A DNA stretch of 64,000 nucleotides, taken from positions 64,001 to 128,000 of IMG/VR virus record IMGVR_UViG_3300049324_000002; one strand, given 5' to 3'. The notes beneath the pieces were generated by a model. That model did not search any database, was not told where the DNA came from, and saw nothing but the letters and a program-made list of their open reading frames with translations. Below are positions 16,774 to 34,120 of this stretch, one piece after another. Position numbers and translations under genes: made by a program. Numbering within the stretch: the stretch's first letter is position 1; each line of letters opens with the position of its first letter. The stretch is from a virus.

Positions 16774-17106
16774 TCACTCGGAAACGCATCGTGACCCCGT
16801 CTCCGTAGGCGAAAACCGAAACACCAAATCAACAACCCAGGTATTCGACAACTCATGATTATCAAAATGAAGATAAGTTGGAAGAGAACCAATACCACTA
16901 CCGTCAGAACGAACCATCATACCAGATATCTTCACATCGACAACCTCCCACACACCACCAGTTTTATCTGCCCTAGCGTATTTAATCTCCAAAAAATCAA
17001 CTTCGATAAACAACGGAGGATTAGTACCAGGAATATGCAATTTATCAAAACCATCAACATTTAATTTAACAGTGCAAGTAGCAGACGCACTAGATACATT
17101 AGACAC
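16774..17106 (-). CDS. paralog family A, member (first gene after the array)
   Basis: IKYAR.....VWEV..V.ISG...RSDG ... TWVVDLVFRFSP; SD AAGGAG. Confidence 0.7.
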   Translation of the reverse strand: MSNVSSASATCTVKLNVDGFDKLHIPGTNPPLFIEVDFLEIKYARADKTGGVWEVVDVKISGMMVRSDGSGIGSLPTYLHFDNHELSNTWVVDLVFRFSPTETGSRCVSE

Positions 17107-17109
17107 AAC

Positions 17110-20100
17110 AAACTCCTTCGTAACGTCGGAAAGGAAAAGACGGGAATCGCACTGACCCGGGAAGTCGGATGAGAACTGAAGTGGAAACGAATGGTCGGGC
17201 TCGAGTAGTCGAGTAGAACTGAATGGACGTGCATAGTCGGAACCGATTGGAAGGGAATAGACACGATCTGAGTAGTCGAATCGACGCGATCCGGCCAGGA
17301 ATGGAGTAGTCGGTAAAGAATAGACTCGACACGTAAAGACAGAAGCGATCAGTCGAAACGACCGGGCACGAAACGCAGTGACGTGGCTTGTCGGAAAGAA
17401 CGGAAGTGCGCCGCCAGGAGTAGTCGAGCCGATCGGATGCGATAGGGCGTGACGTGGCTTGTCGGTGATGGCCAGTAATGACCGGGGGCGACTCGTGTAG
17501 TCGGGTCAGACCAGACTCGCCTTGGACATGAGTAGTCGAAGGACCAGAAACGACTCGCCGTGACATGTCGTATTGTACCGACGTGATCCGCCTGGTCTCG
17601 AATCGCGAAGTCGGAGCTGGATGGGGGAGCGGAGAGAAGTCGGAGCTGAGTGGAACGGAGATGAGGAGTCAGTAGGGGACGACAAGATCTGAATGGTCGA
17701 ACAGAAACGACGAGATTTGTGCGGTCAAAAGAGTCGAAACGATCTGACCCGATCCGATTCGTCGCATTGCAGTGATTGGAACTGACTTGGCTGGTCGAAC
17801 AGAATCGAAAGGACATGGCTTGTCGACGGGAACGAGAGGGCTTGACTGGTCGATCGGAGTCGGACGGAGCTGGCTAGTCGAAATGAATCGCCCGGACCTG
17901 AAAGAAGTGACTTGTCGAACAGGCACGAAATGATATGGATTGTCGAACAGAATCGAAAGGACTTGACTGGTCGATGGAAATGAAAAGACGTGAGTTGGCT
18001 GGTCAAGCGACTCGACTAGGCTGGAACTGACTCGTCGGTAAAGGATCGTCAGGAATCGGAATGAGTAGTCGACAGGAATCGAATAGAGTAGACTCGTCAG
18101 ATCGGGATCGCTGGGATTCGAATAGACTTGTCGGAAAAGAGTAGACTTGACAGGACTAGACGTGAGTGGTCAGACAGTCATGGCTTGACTTGAAACGAGT
18201 GGTCGGTGCGGTCACGATCTGACTCGAAATGAGTGGTCAAAAAGAACTGACCTGACGAGACAGGGTTAGTCGAAAAGAACTGGCCTGACCCGGGGCGACC
18301 GGACGTGAGAAGTCAAGCGAATCGAACAGACATGTTAGTGACCGGATGTGTCGAATCGGCATGACCTGACTTGTAGTGAGAAGTCGAAACGTATCGAATC
18401 GAAAGCGATAGGCCTTGGAGTGTCAAACGAAGTGACTCGGCCAGGCGTGACTGGTCAACAGAATCGACTCGTTGACGAATAGTCAAAGTGGTTCGGATCG
18501 ATTCGCCTCGGCTCGCGTAGTCAACTGAGAAGGAAAGATCTGAATGGAAGAGTCGGACTGGAAACGTCGAGGGCTGACCTGAAACGAGTAGTCGGACTAG
18601 GAATGCCAAGAAACGATTAGCATCGAGTAGTCGGAATAGAATAGCTAAGGCAAGACAAGATCAGTCGGAACAGACAGGACTCGCAAAGGAACAGAAGTGC
18701 CATGAGTAGTCGGTCCGACGTGAATCGACAATGTTAGGAATAGTCGTACGGGGCCGATACGCCTCGACTTGAACTGTCGAAACGAAATGACTTGGCGGGC
18801 ATGGAGAAGTCGGTCTAGAAACGACAAGATCTGCAACGGCTAGTCAGATCGGAGGGAATTGACTGGTATGGAAGCGGGAAGTCGGATGGGGAATGACTGG
18901 ATTGGAAAGCGGGTAGTCACGCGAGACGAATCGACACGCATAGTCGAACAGACATGATAGGAAACGCGTCGAGTAGTCGTCAAGGACTGACCCGACACGA
19001 GTAGTCAAAAGGCACGCATCGTCTGGAAACGAGTAGTCAAACGGGGTGAATCGCCACGCACAGTCAACCGACTCGATCTGACCCGTAAGGAAACGAGTAG
19101 TCGGAAAGAAAGGAAGCGAAGACGGAACGCGTCGAGTAGTCGGAACGGATGAGTAATGAAATCGCATCGCCACGAGTAGTCGGCATGGCAGGGGAGAGGC
19201 GAGAGTAGTCGAAAGGACGTGAACCGATATGAATAGATTCGTCGTATCGAGCTGAGGGGATGAGAAACGCATCGCGTAGTCAGACGGGACTGGACATGAT
19301 TAGTCGGATAAGACGTGAGCGGTAAAGAGTAGTCGGAAGTGTGCCGCTAGGACCTGACACGTCAAGCGAACAGAGTCGATCTGACCCGTCAACAGAAGTG
19401 ACACGTAAAGAATAGTCGGACCCGGAAGGTAGGGAACGGACCTGACACGTCACCAGAGCAGAAGTGGCACGCAAAGAGTAGTCAACTGACACGGAGTGAG
19501 TGGACGTGGATAGCGTAGTCAATCGAGACGACCCGAAACGCAAGGAGAAGTCGGAAAAGATACGGACAGAAAGTGGATTGAGTAGTCATACGAGACGACA
19601 CGGAACGTAAGGAGAAGTCGTGCGATTCGAATCGATAGGAATCGAAGTAGAGTAGTCGAACGGACCCGACGTGGGAGGAAAAGGGCAGTCACCTGACCCG
19701 GCGCGGACCGAGCGGGAAAGAGTAGTCGAGGTGGAGAGCCCAGAATCGATCTGTCGAAGCGGACCGAACGGTCGTGAATTGAGTAGTCGTACTGAGTTGG
19801 AATCGAGTGGGAATGAGTAGTCAACTGAGCGGAATTGTACAGAGTAGTCAAACGAATCGAAGCGGTATCGCGCGGGAATGAGTAGTCGCACAGTATTGAG
19901 CGGGCTCGCGTTGAGTAGTCAACTGACACGAAGGGACGTGGCACGATCCGTCAGGTCACATCGCATCGAATAGACGTGAGTAGTCGAAACGAAGGGAAAC
20001 GACTCGGGTCGGCTCGAACAGAGATGTCGAAACGAATCGGCGGGATATGGAAAGTCGTAACGGGTCGGCGGGATGTGAGATGTCGAAAAGATAAGACACG

Positions 20101-21110
20101 ACCGGAAAAGAAGAAAGAGACGCGACTGGTCGAACGAAAAGAATCGGAATGGATCGCGTAGACTCGTCACCAGAACAGAGCGGGTCGGTAGTGATCTGTC
20201 GGGCGACAAGACACGGCGCGATGTGAAAAGTCGAAAGAAACGACCTGAACCGTAGAGCATCGACAGGTCGCTGGGAACGAATTGTCCGGGCCAGAGAAGT
20301 CACACGAGTGGGAACGAATAGGTCTGTCACTCGAAATGAGTTGACGCGGTAATGGGTAGTCAAGTGAAAAGACGTGGCAGGAATGGACGTGAGTAGTCAC
20401 ACGATCCGATATGATCGGAAGGGACTTGTCGGTATAGTAAGAATGGATCGGTGACGATCAGTCGAATAGACCGGGAACGACACAACGCGACATGAGTAGT
20501 CAATCGAATCGATAAGCGTGGCATGGACTTGTCGGACTAGCAAGGACCAGAAAAGATCTGTCGAACGGACCTGACTCGACCAGCATGGACATGAGTAGTC
20601 AACTGACACGGATCGAGTGGCATGGACTTGTCGAAACGAAGGGATACGCCTCGACTTGACCTGTCAAAAGACCGGAAAGGACCAGACTCGACGCGATAGG
20701 TCACATCGAAACAAATAGACGCGAATCGTCAAACGATAAGACAAGATGCGAAACGACTGGACCTGTCGAAATGATCGGACGGGCAGTGATTTGTCAAATG
20801 AAGCGATTGGACGGGAAATGACACGTCACATGAATCGACCGGGAGCGACCCGATAGGTCGTACGAAGTGAAAGGGCAGGAAAGGACATGTCAGCATGAAC
20901 AGAAATGTAGCGATCTGAACGGTCGTGCAGAAGTGGGGTGATGGGAAAGGACATGTCAGTGCGAATGGACCGGGCATGACTTGCCACGTCAAGCGACCAG
21001 ACCAGACTAGACTCGAAGCGATAGGTCGAACAGGAACGACGCGACTCGATAGGATATGTCACAACGACCGGAATCGACGCGTCACGACGCGATATGTCAC
21101 ACGATACCCA
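17110..21110 (-). repeat. ~4-kb non-coding pentamer-phased repeat array (units mostly 5n+3 nt, punctuated by GAC)
   Basis: Plus strand e.g. 19888-19920 GCACA GTATT GAGCG GGCTC GCGTT GAGTA GTC and 19986-20028 GAAAC GAAGG GAAAC GACTC GGGTC GGCTC GAACA GAGAT GTC; GAGTAGTC/GACTTGTC recurs every ~27-43 nt; purine-rich plus strand, unlike flanks. Confidence 0.9.
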
Positions 21111-21128
21111 GACCACTGGGGTACCACC

Positions 21129-21158
21129 ATCATACCCCACCCGGCCACCGCCACTCAA
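21129..21158 (-). promoter_or_regulatory. sigma-A-like promoter pointing into the array
   Basis: TTGAGT-N18-TATGAT on minus strand, ~25 nt before the first repeat unit. Confidence 0.6.
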
Positions 21159-21198
21159 ACAAAAGCAAAAGAACACAAACAATAAAACGGTGCAGCCG

Positions 21199-21270
21199 TG
21201 CCCCCAGGGAATTCTGCCATCCCGACCCACGCTTTAAAAGAGCGTTGCTCTGCTTCTGAGCTATAGGGGC
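21199..21270 (-). tRNA. tRNA-Lys(TTT), atypical T-loop
   Basis: GCCCCTA/TGGGGGC acceptor, GCTC/GAGC D-stem, ACGCT-CTTTTAA-AGCGT, T-arm GGGAT-GGCAGAA-TTCCC. Confidence 0.88.
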
Positions 21271-32982: not shown

Positions 32983-33250
32983 ACACACATCCTACCGTAC
33001 ATCACACACAACGACAACCTGGGGTACAACAAAACAGGGGGTTTCGTTGGAACTAGAGCCCGAACCTACAACGAACGTTGCACCCCCAGCCACACCACAC
33101 CGGGGCTGTGTTGGAGCCTCCCGCCCTCATCCACCCGGCCCGCCAGCCACACTCCAACCCAGCATTGGCGCCGCTTGGTCACACCTTGGACAAAGCTAGG
33201 AACCGAAACAATCCAACCTAAAAACCCAGTAAAAACTGATAGAAAGGAAA

Positions 33251-33822
33251 CGGGACTCCGGCTATGGGACCCATCGGTTTTAGCGTAAAGGCAGTCAAAA
33301 TTTTAGATAAGAGAATCCCGTTCTGGAGGGGTTTCTGTGGACACCCCCTAGAACAAACATGGGGAACAGGGGTTAAAAAATGGACATGCTACAAATGCTT
33401 ATCAGTCTTTGTGCTGGACGAAGTAGAACAGGTGTGGAAACACGAAGACGGTAGACCAACAGTATGGCACAGCCTCGGAATCAAATGAGGGAGAGAGAGA
33501 AGTACAGAATACAAAATTGCAAACAGCTAAAGGACAACCACAGCGGGAGACACCCAGAGAGTTGAAGATTAAGAGCATCGTAAACCCGTACTCGTAAAAC
33601 AGAAAATATGGGACCCAACCATAAAGGACCCGTATGGGACCCATTGGAAAAATCGAAAATAGTTACTATGAAAATCGGTAGCTCCAAAACTGGGAGCGGC
33701 TGGGAGCTAGCTTGGAACTCCCAGGTCAGAAAGGAGATCGTGAATGCGTATGCATGGGACCCCGCGTGCAACTGGTGGGGGCTGATGCCACGACGCAACG
33801 GGACTCCGACGATGGGTCCCCC
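33251..33822. repeat. cluster of ATGGGACCCAT palindromes and variants
   Basis: Perfect at 33264 and 33634; variants at 33608, 33754, 33812; GGGACTCC at 33252 and 33800. Confidence 0.6.
33264..33488 (+). CDS. zinc-ribbon protein, divergent orientation
   Basis: FCGH ... WTCYKC; SD AGAAAGGA upstream. Confidence 0.55.
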   Translation: MGPIGFSVKAVKILDKRIPFWRGFCGHPLEQTWGTGVKKWTCYKCLSVFVLDEVEQVWKHEDGRPTVWHSLGIK

Positions 33823-34120
33823 TATAAGCCAAATCCTAGATACAATCCTACCACACATCGTAGAACCAGTCAAGCTAGTAGGATCACACGATTGGGTGAC
33901 TAGGCGAGGGCTAACGGAGGGCCGCGCACATACAACCCACACAGAGGGCAAAGCAAAAGCACAATGAATTCATGCATTAAAATAAAACGATTTAAAAGAA
34001 TGAACTAAAGTAATTCACACAATGCAATAGAACACACTAGGCTAATGCATTCATCACATACATGCAATGCAATCATGAATCAATCATCACACATACACAC
34101 AATGCAATAGAGTACACACA

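What the first reader, a model, noticed from the sequence alone, without database searches (positions are those of the whole stretch)
17110..21160. 4-kb promoter-driven non-coding array written in a pentamer code (GAC + n x NN-NYC): candidate guide-RNA array
Seen: the plus strand parses as G-started pentamers closed by GTC, e.g. GCACA GTATT GAGCG GGCTC GCGTT GAGTA GTC (33 nt) and GAAAC GAAGG GAAAC GACTC GGGTC GGCTC GAACA GAGAT GTC (43 nt). Spacings I counted at 19755-20028 were 33, 34, 27, 38, 33, 32, 33, 43, i.e. at or within 1 nt of 5n+3. That implies roughly 110-130 units (estimate). ORFs change frame between units, so the array is not protein-coding. A TTGAGT-N18-TATGAT promoter points into it on the minus strand, giving an RNA of GAC-(NN-DTC)n units with semi-constant triplets alternating with variable dinucleotides. 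Knowledge (from memory, not verifiable here): phage VIPR-type systems use RNAs of alternating constant GGY and variable NN bound by a Cas7/RAMP-like protein, with the NN pairs spelling a gapped DNA target. Inference: this may be a related system with a different constant triplet and an unusually large repertoire. I see no RAMP-like gene in the window, so any effector is elsewhere or unrecognised.
Basis: partly seen in the sequence, partly recalled or inferred. Interest (0 to 1): 0.93.

Follow-up and report, generated by a model that had tools for sequence, protein, structure and literature searches.

The report
Giant phage VIPR-type guide-RNA array
This 4-kb non-coding stretch of an uncultured 146-kb actinobacterial phage is most likely a library of about 118 very short guide RNAs for a lone Cas7-like (VIPR-type) protein encoded 18.6 kb away; the kind of system was published in 2026, but this array is unusually large and uses a different five-base grammar.

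Summary
Window 17128-21098 has a strong 5-base rhythm (lag-5 identity 0.408 against 0.268 in Markov simulations, z 18.7) found nowhere else in the window. On the minus strand it parses into 118 units of GAC + 5-7 pentamers NNN-Y-C, spaced 28, 33 or 38 nt (±1).

It is a single 256-aa protein with a Cas7/Csm3 fold and a glycine-rich loop, directly preceded by a 7-unit array of the same grammar.

In 70 of 80 loci that encode a homologue (down to 29% identity, all Actinomycetota or their viruses), the same GAC + NNNNC units cluster beside the gene on its strand. A related complete 153-kb phage has its own 4.4-kb array and shares no guides with this one.

This is therefore a VIPR-type system (bioRxiv 2026). 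It is a variant: about 142 guides in three arrays, short tail-less units, and a YC scaffold (GR on the other strand) instead of GGY.

Not shown: the RNA itself, which strand is used (minus favoured, about 0.7), the decoding rule, or any target. All target searches stayed at chance.

This scan has noted VIPR-like arrays on other DNA (432 notes, at least 284 genomes), and other windows of this genome flagged the RAMP gene and the smaller arrays.

The parts
17128..21098 (-). Array A4. It holds 118 well-formed units, each a (Y)GAC mark followed by 5-7 pentamers NNN-Y-C. The first pentamer is often TACTC. Unit spacing is 28, 33 or 38 nt (±1).
   Evidence: There is no period-3 signal and no Rfam family. 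Unit contents are nearly all different from one another.
21099..21147 (-). Conserved leader just 5' of the first unit. It contains TGGCCGGGTG, the -10-like GGGGTATGAT (TATGAT at 21134-21129) and the inverted repeat ACCCCAG..CTGGGTA (21122-21105).
   Evidence: The same block stands in front of array A2 (genome ~23.8 kb). TATGAT matches the TATGCT/TATGAT -10 of about 20 leaderless phage promoters. The hairpin is not more stable than shuffles (z -0.3 and -0.7).
21153..21158 (-).
   Evidence: 9 of 12 matches, chance level. It is not conserved in front of A2.
21199..21270 (-). tRNA-like gene directly upstream of the array leader.
   Evidence: Rfam RF00005, 45.6 bits. ARAGORN did not call it.
16774..17119 (-). 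Downstream 110-aa ORF (GTG at 17106) with its ribosome-binding site GAAGGAG at 17119-17113. This is only about 10-20 nt after the last unit, so there is no room for a terminator or for an opposing promoter.
   Evidence: No Pfam or PHROG match.

Best explanation
The 4-kb tract is a multi-guide RNA gene of a VIPR-type system.

Proposed mechanism (inferred): a phage promoter (TATGAT at 21134-21129) drives a long minus-strand precursor, which carries 118 units of 5'-GAC-(NNN-Y-C)5-7. The single Cas7-like RAMP protein of the phage (256 aa, genome 61737-62507, 1.5 kb before the window) coats each unit, one protomer per pentamer. It holds the constant Y-C letters and presents the variable letters for gapped pairing with DNA of competing mobile elements or host genes, which are then silenced. 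The GAC marks break the pentamer register and delimit units of 28-38 nt, either by processing or by ending each protein filament.

Shown here:
- the 5-base grammar;
- the RAMP fold of the protein;
- conserved linkage of gene and array;
- complete turnover of guide content between related phages.

Inferred only: transcription and which strand, processing, protein binding, the pairing rule and the targets.
For: 1. Grammar. The 5-nt period has z = 18.7 and is confined to the tract. The plus strand shows two semi-constant and three information-free positions per pentamer, and the C that ends each minus-strand pentamer reaches 98-100% just after the GAC mark.

2. Effector. The genome has one homologue only. 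Its model (pLDDT 78.6, pTM 0.74) matches Csm3 and type VII Cas7 chains first in Foldseek (E about 1e-5, probability 1.00). It also matches them in an independent all-against-all search (Z 9.5-8; nearly all of the top 30 are CRISPR RAMPs). Viral lone RAMP proteins come first in BFVD (E 1e-9 to 5e-7). The family has invariant G..G.GA.RS.G.G residues in a glycine-rich loop.

3. Linkage. A 7-unit array of the same grammar sits between a conserved 185-aa ORF and this gene. In 70 of 80 homologue loci, three or more strict units cluster on the gene strand within -2 to +3 kb. Five loci have clusters on the opposite strand. Clusters are almost absent elsewhere in the loci.

4. Lineage trait and hypervariability. 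A complete 153-kb relative (RAMP 63% identical) has a 4.4-kb array plus smaller ones, yet shares no guides beyond shuffled controls. Two contigs with identical RAMP proteins differ only in the upstream part of their arrays.

5. Known precedent. VIPR systems are lone viral RAMPs with 5-nt-repeat RNAs. Variant motifs (NNNGG, YNNNG, NNNNG) and tail-less 'staggered' arrays are described (bioRxiv 10.64898/2026.04.26.720920).

6. Strand. The conserved -10 and leader are shared with array A2. Array A3 starts 3 nt after a stop codon, and A4 ends at the next gene's ribosome-binding site. In experimentally mapped phage SUSP1 the repeats lie on the vipr gene strand.
Against:
- No target above shuffled controls. 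This covers this genome, three related complete or near-complete phages and about 0.8 Mb of related loci, under nine rule variants. Three exact scans of IMG/VR also found nothing.
- Sequence similarity to the experimentally studied SUSP1 Vipr is not significant (hhalign E 0.057, probability about 1%).
- The constant letters are not GGY, units have 5-7 rather than 9-16 repeats, and there is no structured ~50-nt tail.
- On the opposite strand the unit end GAGUAGUC resembles the start of the SUSP1 tails (GGUAGU..) and the constant letters would be G-R. That argues for the plus strand.
- Five loci carry the array inverted relative to the gene.
Confidence: 0.8

Rival explanations
1. Same VIPR-type system, but the functional RNA is the G-rich plus strand: units of (G-R-N-N-N)5-7 ending in a short 3' tail GAGUAGUC, transcribed antisense to all neighbouring genes.
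For: Published vrRNAs have G-rich constant letters and a 3' tail. Variant motifs NNNGG and NNNNG are listed, and they equal the reverse complement of what the actinobacterial relatives show. SUSP1 tails begin GGUAGU(U)AG, close to G(A/G)GUAGUC here. G is the best-conserved letter on that strand.
Against: There is no room for a plus-strand promoter: A4 abuts a ribosome-binding site, and A3 begins 3 nt after a stop codon so a plus-strand RNA would run into that ORF. The block shared by A4 and A2 looks like the phage's own -10 on the minus strand. In 70 of 80 loci the C-rich strand is the gene strand, and in SUSP1 the RNA strand is the gene strand. In the hhalign alignment to SUSP1 Vipr, the G-loop residues that the structure paper says read the two guanines (D177, W178) align with A and S here. 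This alignment is of low confidence.
Confidence: 0.22
2. The tract is an RNA decoy or sponge rather than a guide library. Its many RAMP-binding units would titrate or redirect the RAMP protein of this phage or of a competitor, and the variable letters would carry no targeting information.
For: Satellite-encoded vrRNAs that redirect a viral VIPR to decoy sites are described (bioRxiv 10.64898/2026.10.15.759431). No targets were found here. Units are short, with only 15-21 variable letters.
Against: A sponge needs no diversity, yet nearly all 118 units differ (median pairwise identity 40%), and the content is fully replaced between relatives while the grammar is kept. The phage encodes the cognate protein together with a small array in an operon-like arrangement.
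Confidence: 0.07
3. The tract is a DNA-level element, such as phased protein-binding sites, a structural or satellite repeat, or a packaging or partition region, and is unrelated to the RAMP gene.
For: A 5-bp period is half a helical turn. No transcript has been shown. The tract lies 18.6 kb from the RAMP gene.
Against: The same grammar is tied to an RNA-binding-fold protein in 73 of 80 loci across about 30-98% protein identity. The marks and constant letters are strand-specific. Content is hypervariable while the grammar is conserved, which is unlike binding-site arrays.
Confidence: 0.04

Closest known systems
Type II VIPR of Escherichia phage SUSP1 and the Pseudomonas fulva prophage (Vipr + vap + vrRNA; bioRxiv 10.64898/2026.04.26.720920 and .720927)
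   Same: - Phage-borne, with a single small RAMP protein that has a glycine-rich loop.
- RNA genes built of 5-nt repeats in which constant letters alternate with hypervariable ones.
- An accessory ORF next to the RAMP gene, and arrays beside it.
- No self-targets.
   Different: - Constant letters are Y-C (or G-R on the other strand), not G-G-Y.
- Three free letters per pentamer, not two.
- 5-7 repeats per unit, not 9-16.
- A 3-nt GAC mark instead of a ~50-nt structured 3' tail.
- 142 units in three arrays, against four vrRNAs in SUSP1.
- Protein similarity is not significant at sequence level.
- The 1-nt-skip rule is unverified here.
Variant VIPR types with NNNGG, YNNNG or NNNNG repeats and 'staggered' arrays in which one vrRNA ends where the next begins (same preprint, Methods and fig. 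S17-S18 legends)
   Same: Tail-less, back-to-back units, and only one or two constant letters per pentamer. Some units here are one base short (5n+2), as if neighbours overlapped by 1 nt.
   Different: I could not see the figures or tables, so I do not know whether this actinobacterial family is one of the seven types. The main text of the discovery preprint that I read describes no array of more than 100 units. If the gene strand is the RNA, the motif here is NNNYC, which is not listed.
Cas7 backbone of class 1 CRISPR effectors (Csm3, Cmr4, type VII Cas7, Csf2)
   Same: Best structural matches of the 256-aa protein. The principle is the same: one protomer per fixed number of RNA bases, with bases flipped out periodically.
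   Different: No CRISPR repeats and no second RAMP gene. The period is 5 nt, not 6 nt. The other cas genes were not searched for genome-wide.
Solo vrRNA arrays far from any vipr gene (bioRxiv 10.64898/2026.10.15.759431)
   Same: An array with its own promoter, at a distance from the effector gene.
   Different: Here the effector is on the same genome 18.6 kb away, just inside that paper's 20-kb limit, so the array is not 'solo'.

Membership tests
VIPR | Lone RAMP (Cas7-like) protein with an RRM core and a glycine-rich loop | tested here: met
   Foldseek against PDB: Csm3 and type VII Cas7 first, E about 1e-5. VIA-align: Z 9.5-8 with RAMPs filling the top of the list. Viral RAMP proteins come first in BFVD. 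The G-loop residues are invariant. There is one copy in the genome.
VIPR | RNA genes made of tandem 5-nt repeats with constant and hypervariable positions | tested here: met
VIPR | Constant motif GGY (YNNGG repeats) | tested here: not met
   The constant letters are Y-C on the gene strand, or G (85%) and A/G on the other strand, and the third letter is free. The preprint allows 'a related consensus'.
VIPR | 9-16 repeats followed by an invariant structured 3' tail | tested here: not met
   There are 5-7 pentamers per unit, separated by a 3-nt GAC mark and a semi-conserved first pentamer. This resembles the 'staggered' arrays named in the preprint.
VIPR | Array physically linked to the vipr gene across genomes | tested here: met
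   Array A3 is adjacent to the gene. Of 80 loci, 70 have units on the gene strand nearby, and 3 more have them only on the opposite strand. The array under review itself is 18.6 kb away.
VIPR | Accessory vap gene beside vipr | tested here: inconclusive
   A 185-aa ORF upstream of A3 is conserved in position and sequence (33% identity to a Nocardiopsis prophage, E 9e-23). It has no family match, and its helical model is of low confidence (pTM 0.41).
VIPR | Sequence relationship to the characterised Vipr proteins | tested here: inconclusive
   hhalign of the family profile against SUSP1 Vipr gives E 0.057 and probability about 1%. The G-loops do align.
VIPR | Variable letters spell targets under a gapped (1-nt skip) rule | tested here: inconclusive
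   No excess over shuffled guides under NN or NNN rules with skips of 0-3 in about 1.3 Mb of local sequence. There were no exact IMG/VR hits for three decoded patterns from two guides. The searches had little power.
VIPR | vrRNAs are expressed and bound by Vipr | not testable with these tools
CRISPR-Cas class 1 | Direct repeats of 25-40 nt separating spacers, with further RAMP genes such as cas5 and cas6 | tested here: not met
   No such repeats occur in or near the arrays, and there is only one RAMP gene. Other cas genes were not searched for genome-wide.

The most novel reading that the evidence does not exclude
The reading has three parts.

1. This phage lineage runs a pyrimidine-scaffold (NNN-Y-C) version of the VIPR code, read from sense-strand precursors. 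The guanine-reading residues of Vipr are replaced in its RAMP protein.
2. It maintains the largest guide repertoires seen so far for such systems: 142 units here, and a separate 4.4-kb array in a relative.
3. The libraries turn over completely between relatives and change at the promoter-proximal end. That would point to an active, polarised way of acquiring guides without Cas1.
Probability: 0.15. Interest if true: 0.85.

Novelty: new variant of a known kind. Interest (0 to 1): 0.55.

Why it matters
VIPR systems were described only in 2026, with a handful of guides per locus and a GGY scaffold. A phage that spends about 3.5% of its genome on roughly 142 ultra-short guides, in arrays with their own promoters far from the effector gene, would widen the known range of array size, unit format and scaffold letters.

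It also offers natural material for two open questions: how the RAMP protein reads a different scaffold, and how new guides arise. The upstream-end differences between near-identical relatives bear on the second question.

For annotation, it shows that 4-kb 'gene deserts' in actinophage genomes can be guide libraries, and that the effector may lie outside the inspected window.

Tried and rejected
**Codon signal.** Read on the minus strand, the three free letters looked codon-like in A4. Stops were 6 against 14.2 expected, and the third letter was G/T-rich like the phage's wobble position. This did not hold: with all arrays the count was 9 against 13.9 (P 0.08), and the relative G001 showed no depletion (17 against 12). 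Likelihood under phage codon usage was no better than uniform. The composition can be explained by the genome-wide strand bias.

**Targets.** NNN, N4N5 and N3N4 rules with skips of 0-3 were tried against four sets: this genome, 0.78 Mb of related loci, and the complete phages G001, G004 and G002. G001's guides were also tried against this genome. All stayed at shuffled level. Three exact scans of IMG/VR with decoded 21-letter patterns found nothing.

**Position-specific substitution rates between close relatives.** The third free letter changed most in one pair (6 of 13 substitutions), but other pairs disagreed.

**Leader hairpin.** It is conserved in sequence but no more stable than shuffles. 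The generic promoter and terminator scans were at chance level.

**False positive.** A fourth period-5 region (genome 20951-21200) has no unit grammar.

**Relatives and family searches that found nothing useful.**
- No match of the array in cultured phages. Among cultured phages only Microcystis phage Mae-JY09 has a RAMP homologue.
- Leader pattern scans of IMG/VR and JGI metagenomes found nothing.
- The downstream ORF has no relatives in metagenomes.
- Rfam found no family in the array, hammerhead included.

Full report
**1. The observation.** The plus strand of 17110-21160 is purine-rich (G 1314, A 1242, C 818, T 677). Lag-5 identity is 0.408 and lag-10 identity 0.371, while neighbouring lags sit at 0.21-0.25. 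Markov-1 simulations give 0.268 ± 0.0075 (z 18.7), and the highest value in 103 other 4-kb windows of the 64 kb is 0.297. In a sliding scan, only windows between 17101 and 21300 pass the period-5 threshold, and period 3 is absent there. So the ORFs of up to 155 aa listed on the minus strand are not genes. GC skew flips from about -0.33 to +0.24 exactly over the tract, while AT skew does not change.

The plus-strand pentamer logo is G 85%, A 66%, then 0.11, 0.03 and 0.00 bits. On the minus strand, 118 of 143 GAC marks are followed by C at three or more of the next four pentamer ends. The base before GAC is C (60%) or T (38%). The first pentamer tends to TACTC, and the spacings cluster at 27-29, 32-34 and 37-39. 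Units are nearly all different from one another (median pairwise identity 40%, almost all of it from the constant letters). Rfam finds nothing in the tract.

**2. The surroundings and the genome.** The window is bases 64001-128000 of a 146,490-bp virus record, estimated 95% complete. Nearly all genes are on the minus strand, the coding strand is G+T-rich, and there are many tRNA genes. No cultured phage is close.

The same rhythm occurs at genome 23.2-23.8 kb (A2, 17 units) and 62.66-62.84 kb (A3, 7 units). A fourth hit at 20.95-21.2 kb lacks the grammar.

A note from another window of this scan pointed to a RAMP-like gene just before my window, so I tested it. ORF L001:2737-3507 (minus strand, 256 aa; genome 61737-62507) has no Pfam, PHROG or PDB sequence match. 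It does have 188 homologues in the large protein collection. Those that carry a name come from Streptomyces, Nocardiopsis, Actinomadura and a Jatrophihabitantaceae MAG. The family has an invariant glycine-rich loop.

Its AlphaFold model (pLDDT 78.6, pTM 0.74) matches Csm3 and type VII Cas7 first in Foldseek (E about 1e-5). It also matches them in an independent search of 48,161 chains (Z 9.5-8, with nearly all of the top 30 being CRISPR RAMPs). In the viral structure library, lone viral RAMP proteins come first. It is the only such gene in the genome.

**3. Linkage of gene and array.** A3 fills the gap between a conserved 185-aa ORF and the RAMP gene. That ORF is 33% identical to the ORF in the same position in a Nocardiopsis prophage.

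I collected 65 IMG/VR loci, 12 genome loci (all Actinomycetota) and several contigs that encode homologues down to 29% identity. In 70 of 80 loci, three or more strict units (GAC followed by C at four successive pentamer ends) cluster on the gene strand within -2 to +3 kb: 54 loci have them upstream and 23 downstream. Five loci carry clusters on the opposite strand. Only four loci show a cluster anywhere else. Several of the seven loci without any cluster are cut off at the contig end.

High-GC relatives read CGACTACCC + NNNCC or NNNNC. Low-GC distant relatives read YGAC + NNNYC or NNNAC. Only the mark and the last C are universal.

**4. Lineage trait and turnover.** The complete 153-kb relative G001 (RAMP 63% identical) has a 4.4-kb array at 145.3-149.7 kb, plus arrays of 0.9, 0.7 and 0.45 kb. 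Its guides and mine share nothing beyond shuffled controls. The ORFs upstream of G001's large array and of my A2 look alike by eye. I did not align them; if they are homologous, the large array sits at different loci in the two phages.

Two contigs with the identical RAMP protein have arrays whose gene-proximal 190 nt are about 98% identical. Their upstream parts cannot be aligned and differ by 88 nt in length. A 98% relative has a collinear A3 at 95% identity.

**5. Comparison with what is known.** VIPR systems (bioRxiv 10.64898/2026.04.26.720920) are phage-borne lone RAMPs with vrRNAs of 9-16 YNNGG repeats and a structured 3' tail. The NN letters pair with DNA, skipping every third base, and this silences competing elements. 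Seven types are reported, with variant repeats (NNNGG, YNNNG, NNNNG), 'staggered' tail-less arrays and ribozyme-spaced arrays.

The structure paper (.720927) shows one protomer per repeat. The two guanines are read by H17, D177, R138 and W178. In the weak profile alignment to SUSP1 Vipr (E 0.057) the G-loops align, but D177 and W178 correspond to A and S here. That would fit a different scaffold; it is an inference from a low-confidence alignment.

I file the tract as a VIPR-type array of a variant format. The GGY motif and the repeat-plus-tail architecture are not met. The RAMP fold, the 5-nt code and the gene-array linkage are met. Expression and targeting are untested. I could not check whether this family is among the published types, because no supplementary tables are held.

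**6. Which strand.** Evidence for the minus strand:
- A4 and A2 are both preceded by the same block of about 45 nt, with GGGGTATGAT, followed by a short inverted repeat and then the first GAC. TATGAT matches the TATGCT/TATGAT -10 of about 20 leaderless phage promoters.
- G001's arrays likewise begin after a small inverted repeat, and its large array is preceded by a TATGCT element.
- A3 starts 3 nt after a stop codon. A4 ends 10-20 nt before the next gene's ribosome-binding site, which leaves no room for an opposing promoter or terminator.
- In 70 of 80 loci the C-rich strand is the gene strand. In SUSP1, where the RNAs were mapped experimentally, the repeats are on the vipr gene strand.

Evidence for the plus strand:
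- The published scaffolds are G-rich.
- The plus-strand unit end GAGUAGUC resembles the GGUAGU start of the SUSP1 tails.

I put the minus strand at about 0.7.

**7. What I could not show.** No sequencing runs could be retrieved, and the complex predictor was unavailable. Target searches under nine rule variants stayed at shuffled level. Three exact scans of IMG/VR found nothing. With 10-21 informative letters per unit, these searches had little power. An initial codon-like signal did not replicate. Substitution patterns between close relatives were too sparse to reveal the code.

**8. Verdict.** The kind of system is already published, and this scan has noted look-alikes in at least 284 genomes. 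The value here therefore lies in four points:
- the scale (118 units here, 142 in the genome);
- the short tail-less unit format with a GAC mark;
- the YC (or GR) scaffold;
- the dispersed, separately promoted arrays, together with the hint of upstream-end turnover.

Noticed in passing
genome 61737-62507 (1.5 kb before the window; L001:2737-3507, minus strand): The only RAMP/Cas7-fold gene of the phage. It is preceded by a 7-unit array and a conserved 185-aa ORF, and followed by a clamp-loader-like AAA+ gene (PF13177).
   Followed up: yes
genome 23201-23781 (L002), minus strand: Array A2 has 17 units and the same leader as the 4-kb array. By eye, its upstream 281-aa ORF (no Pfam match) resembles the ORF upstream of the 4.4-kb array of the relative G001. 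This was not tested by alignment.
   Followed up: partly
G001 (IMG/VR record of L008) 145301-149700 and 150051-950: A related complete 153-kb phage has its own 4.4-kb pentamer array and a further 0.9-kb one. No guides are shared with this genome.
   Followed up: yes
L105:3490-3828 versus L106:3490-3916: Two contigs with identical RAMP proteins have arrays that are about 98% identical over the gene-proximal 190 nt. Their upstream ends are unrelated and differ by 88 nt in length, so array change is polarised.
   Followed up: partly
window 21199-21270, minus strand: tRNA-like gene scored by Rfam (45.6 bits) but not called by ARAGORN. It lies directly upstream of the array leader.
   Followed up: no
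window 25014-64000 and just beyond (for example genome 89014, 96982, 99117-112032, 128497), minus strand: About 20 genes start with ATGACGAAC and are preceded by a conserved TTGCGT..TGCTATGCT block about 6-7 nt before the ATG. These look like leaderless promoter cassettes.
   Followed up: partly
whole genome: There is an extreme strand asymmetry. Nearly all genes are on one strand, and third codon positions are 83% G or T (G 0.36, T 0.47).
   Followed up: partly
window 33001-34000: The only other place where GC skew leaves the genome-wide negative value (0.002). ORFs are listed on both strands there.
   Followed up: no
L073 (Escherichia phage SUSP1) 27500-28030 and 29062-29510, minus strand: The published GGYNN vrRNA tracts lie on the vipr gene strand. 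Their tails begin GGUAGU(U)AG, which resembles the reverse complement of the GACUACUC unit start seen here.
   Followed up: partly
PP395641.1 (Microcystis phage Mae-JY09) 37713-38450: This is the only cultured-phage record with a homologue of the RAMP protein (29.5% identity over 90% of the query). It is annotated as hypothetical.
   Followed up: no
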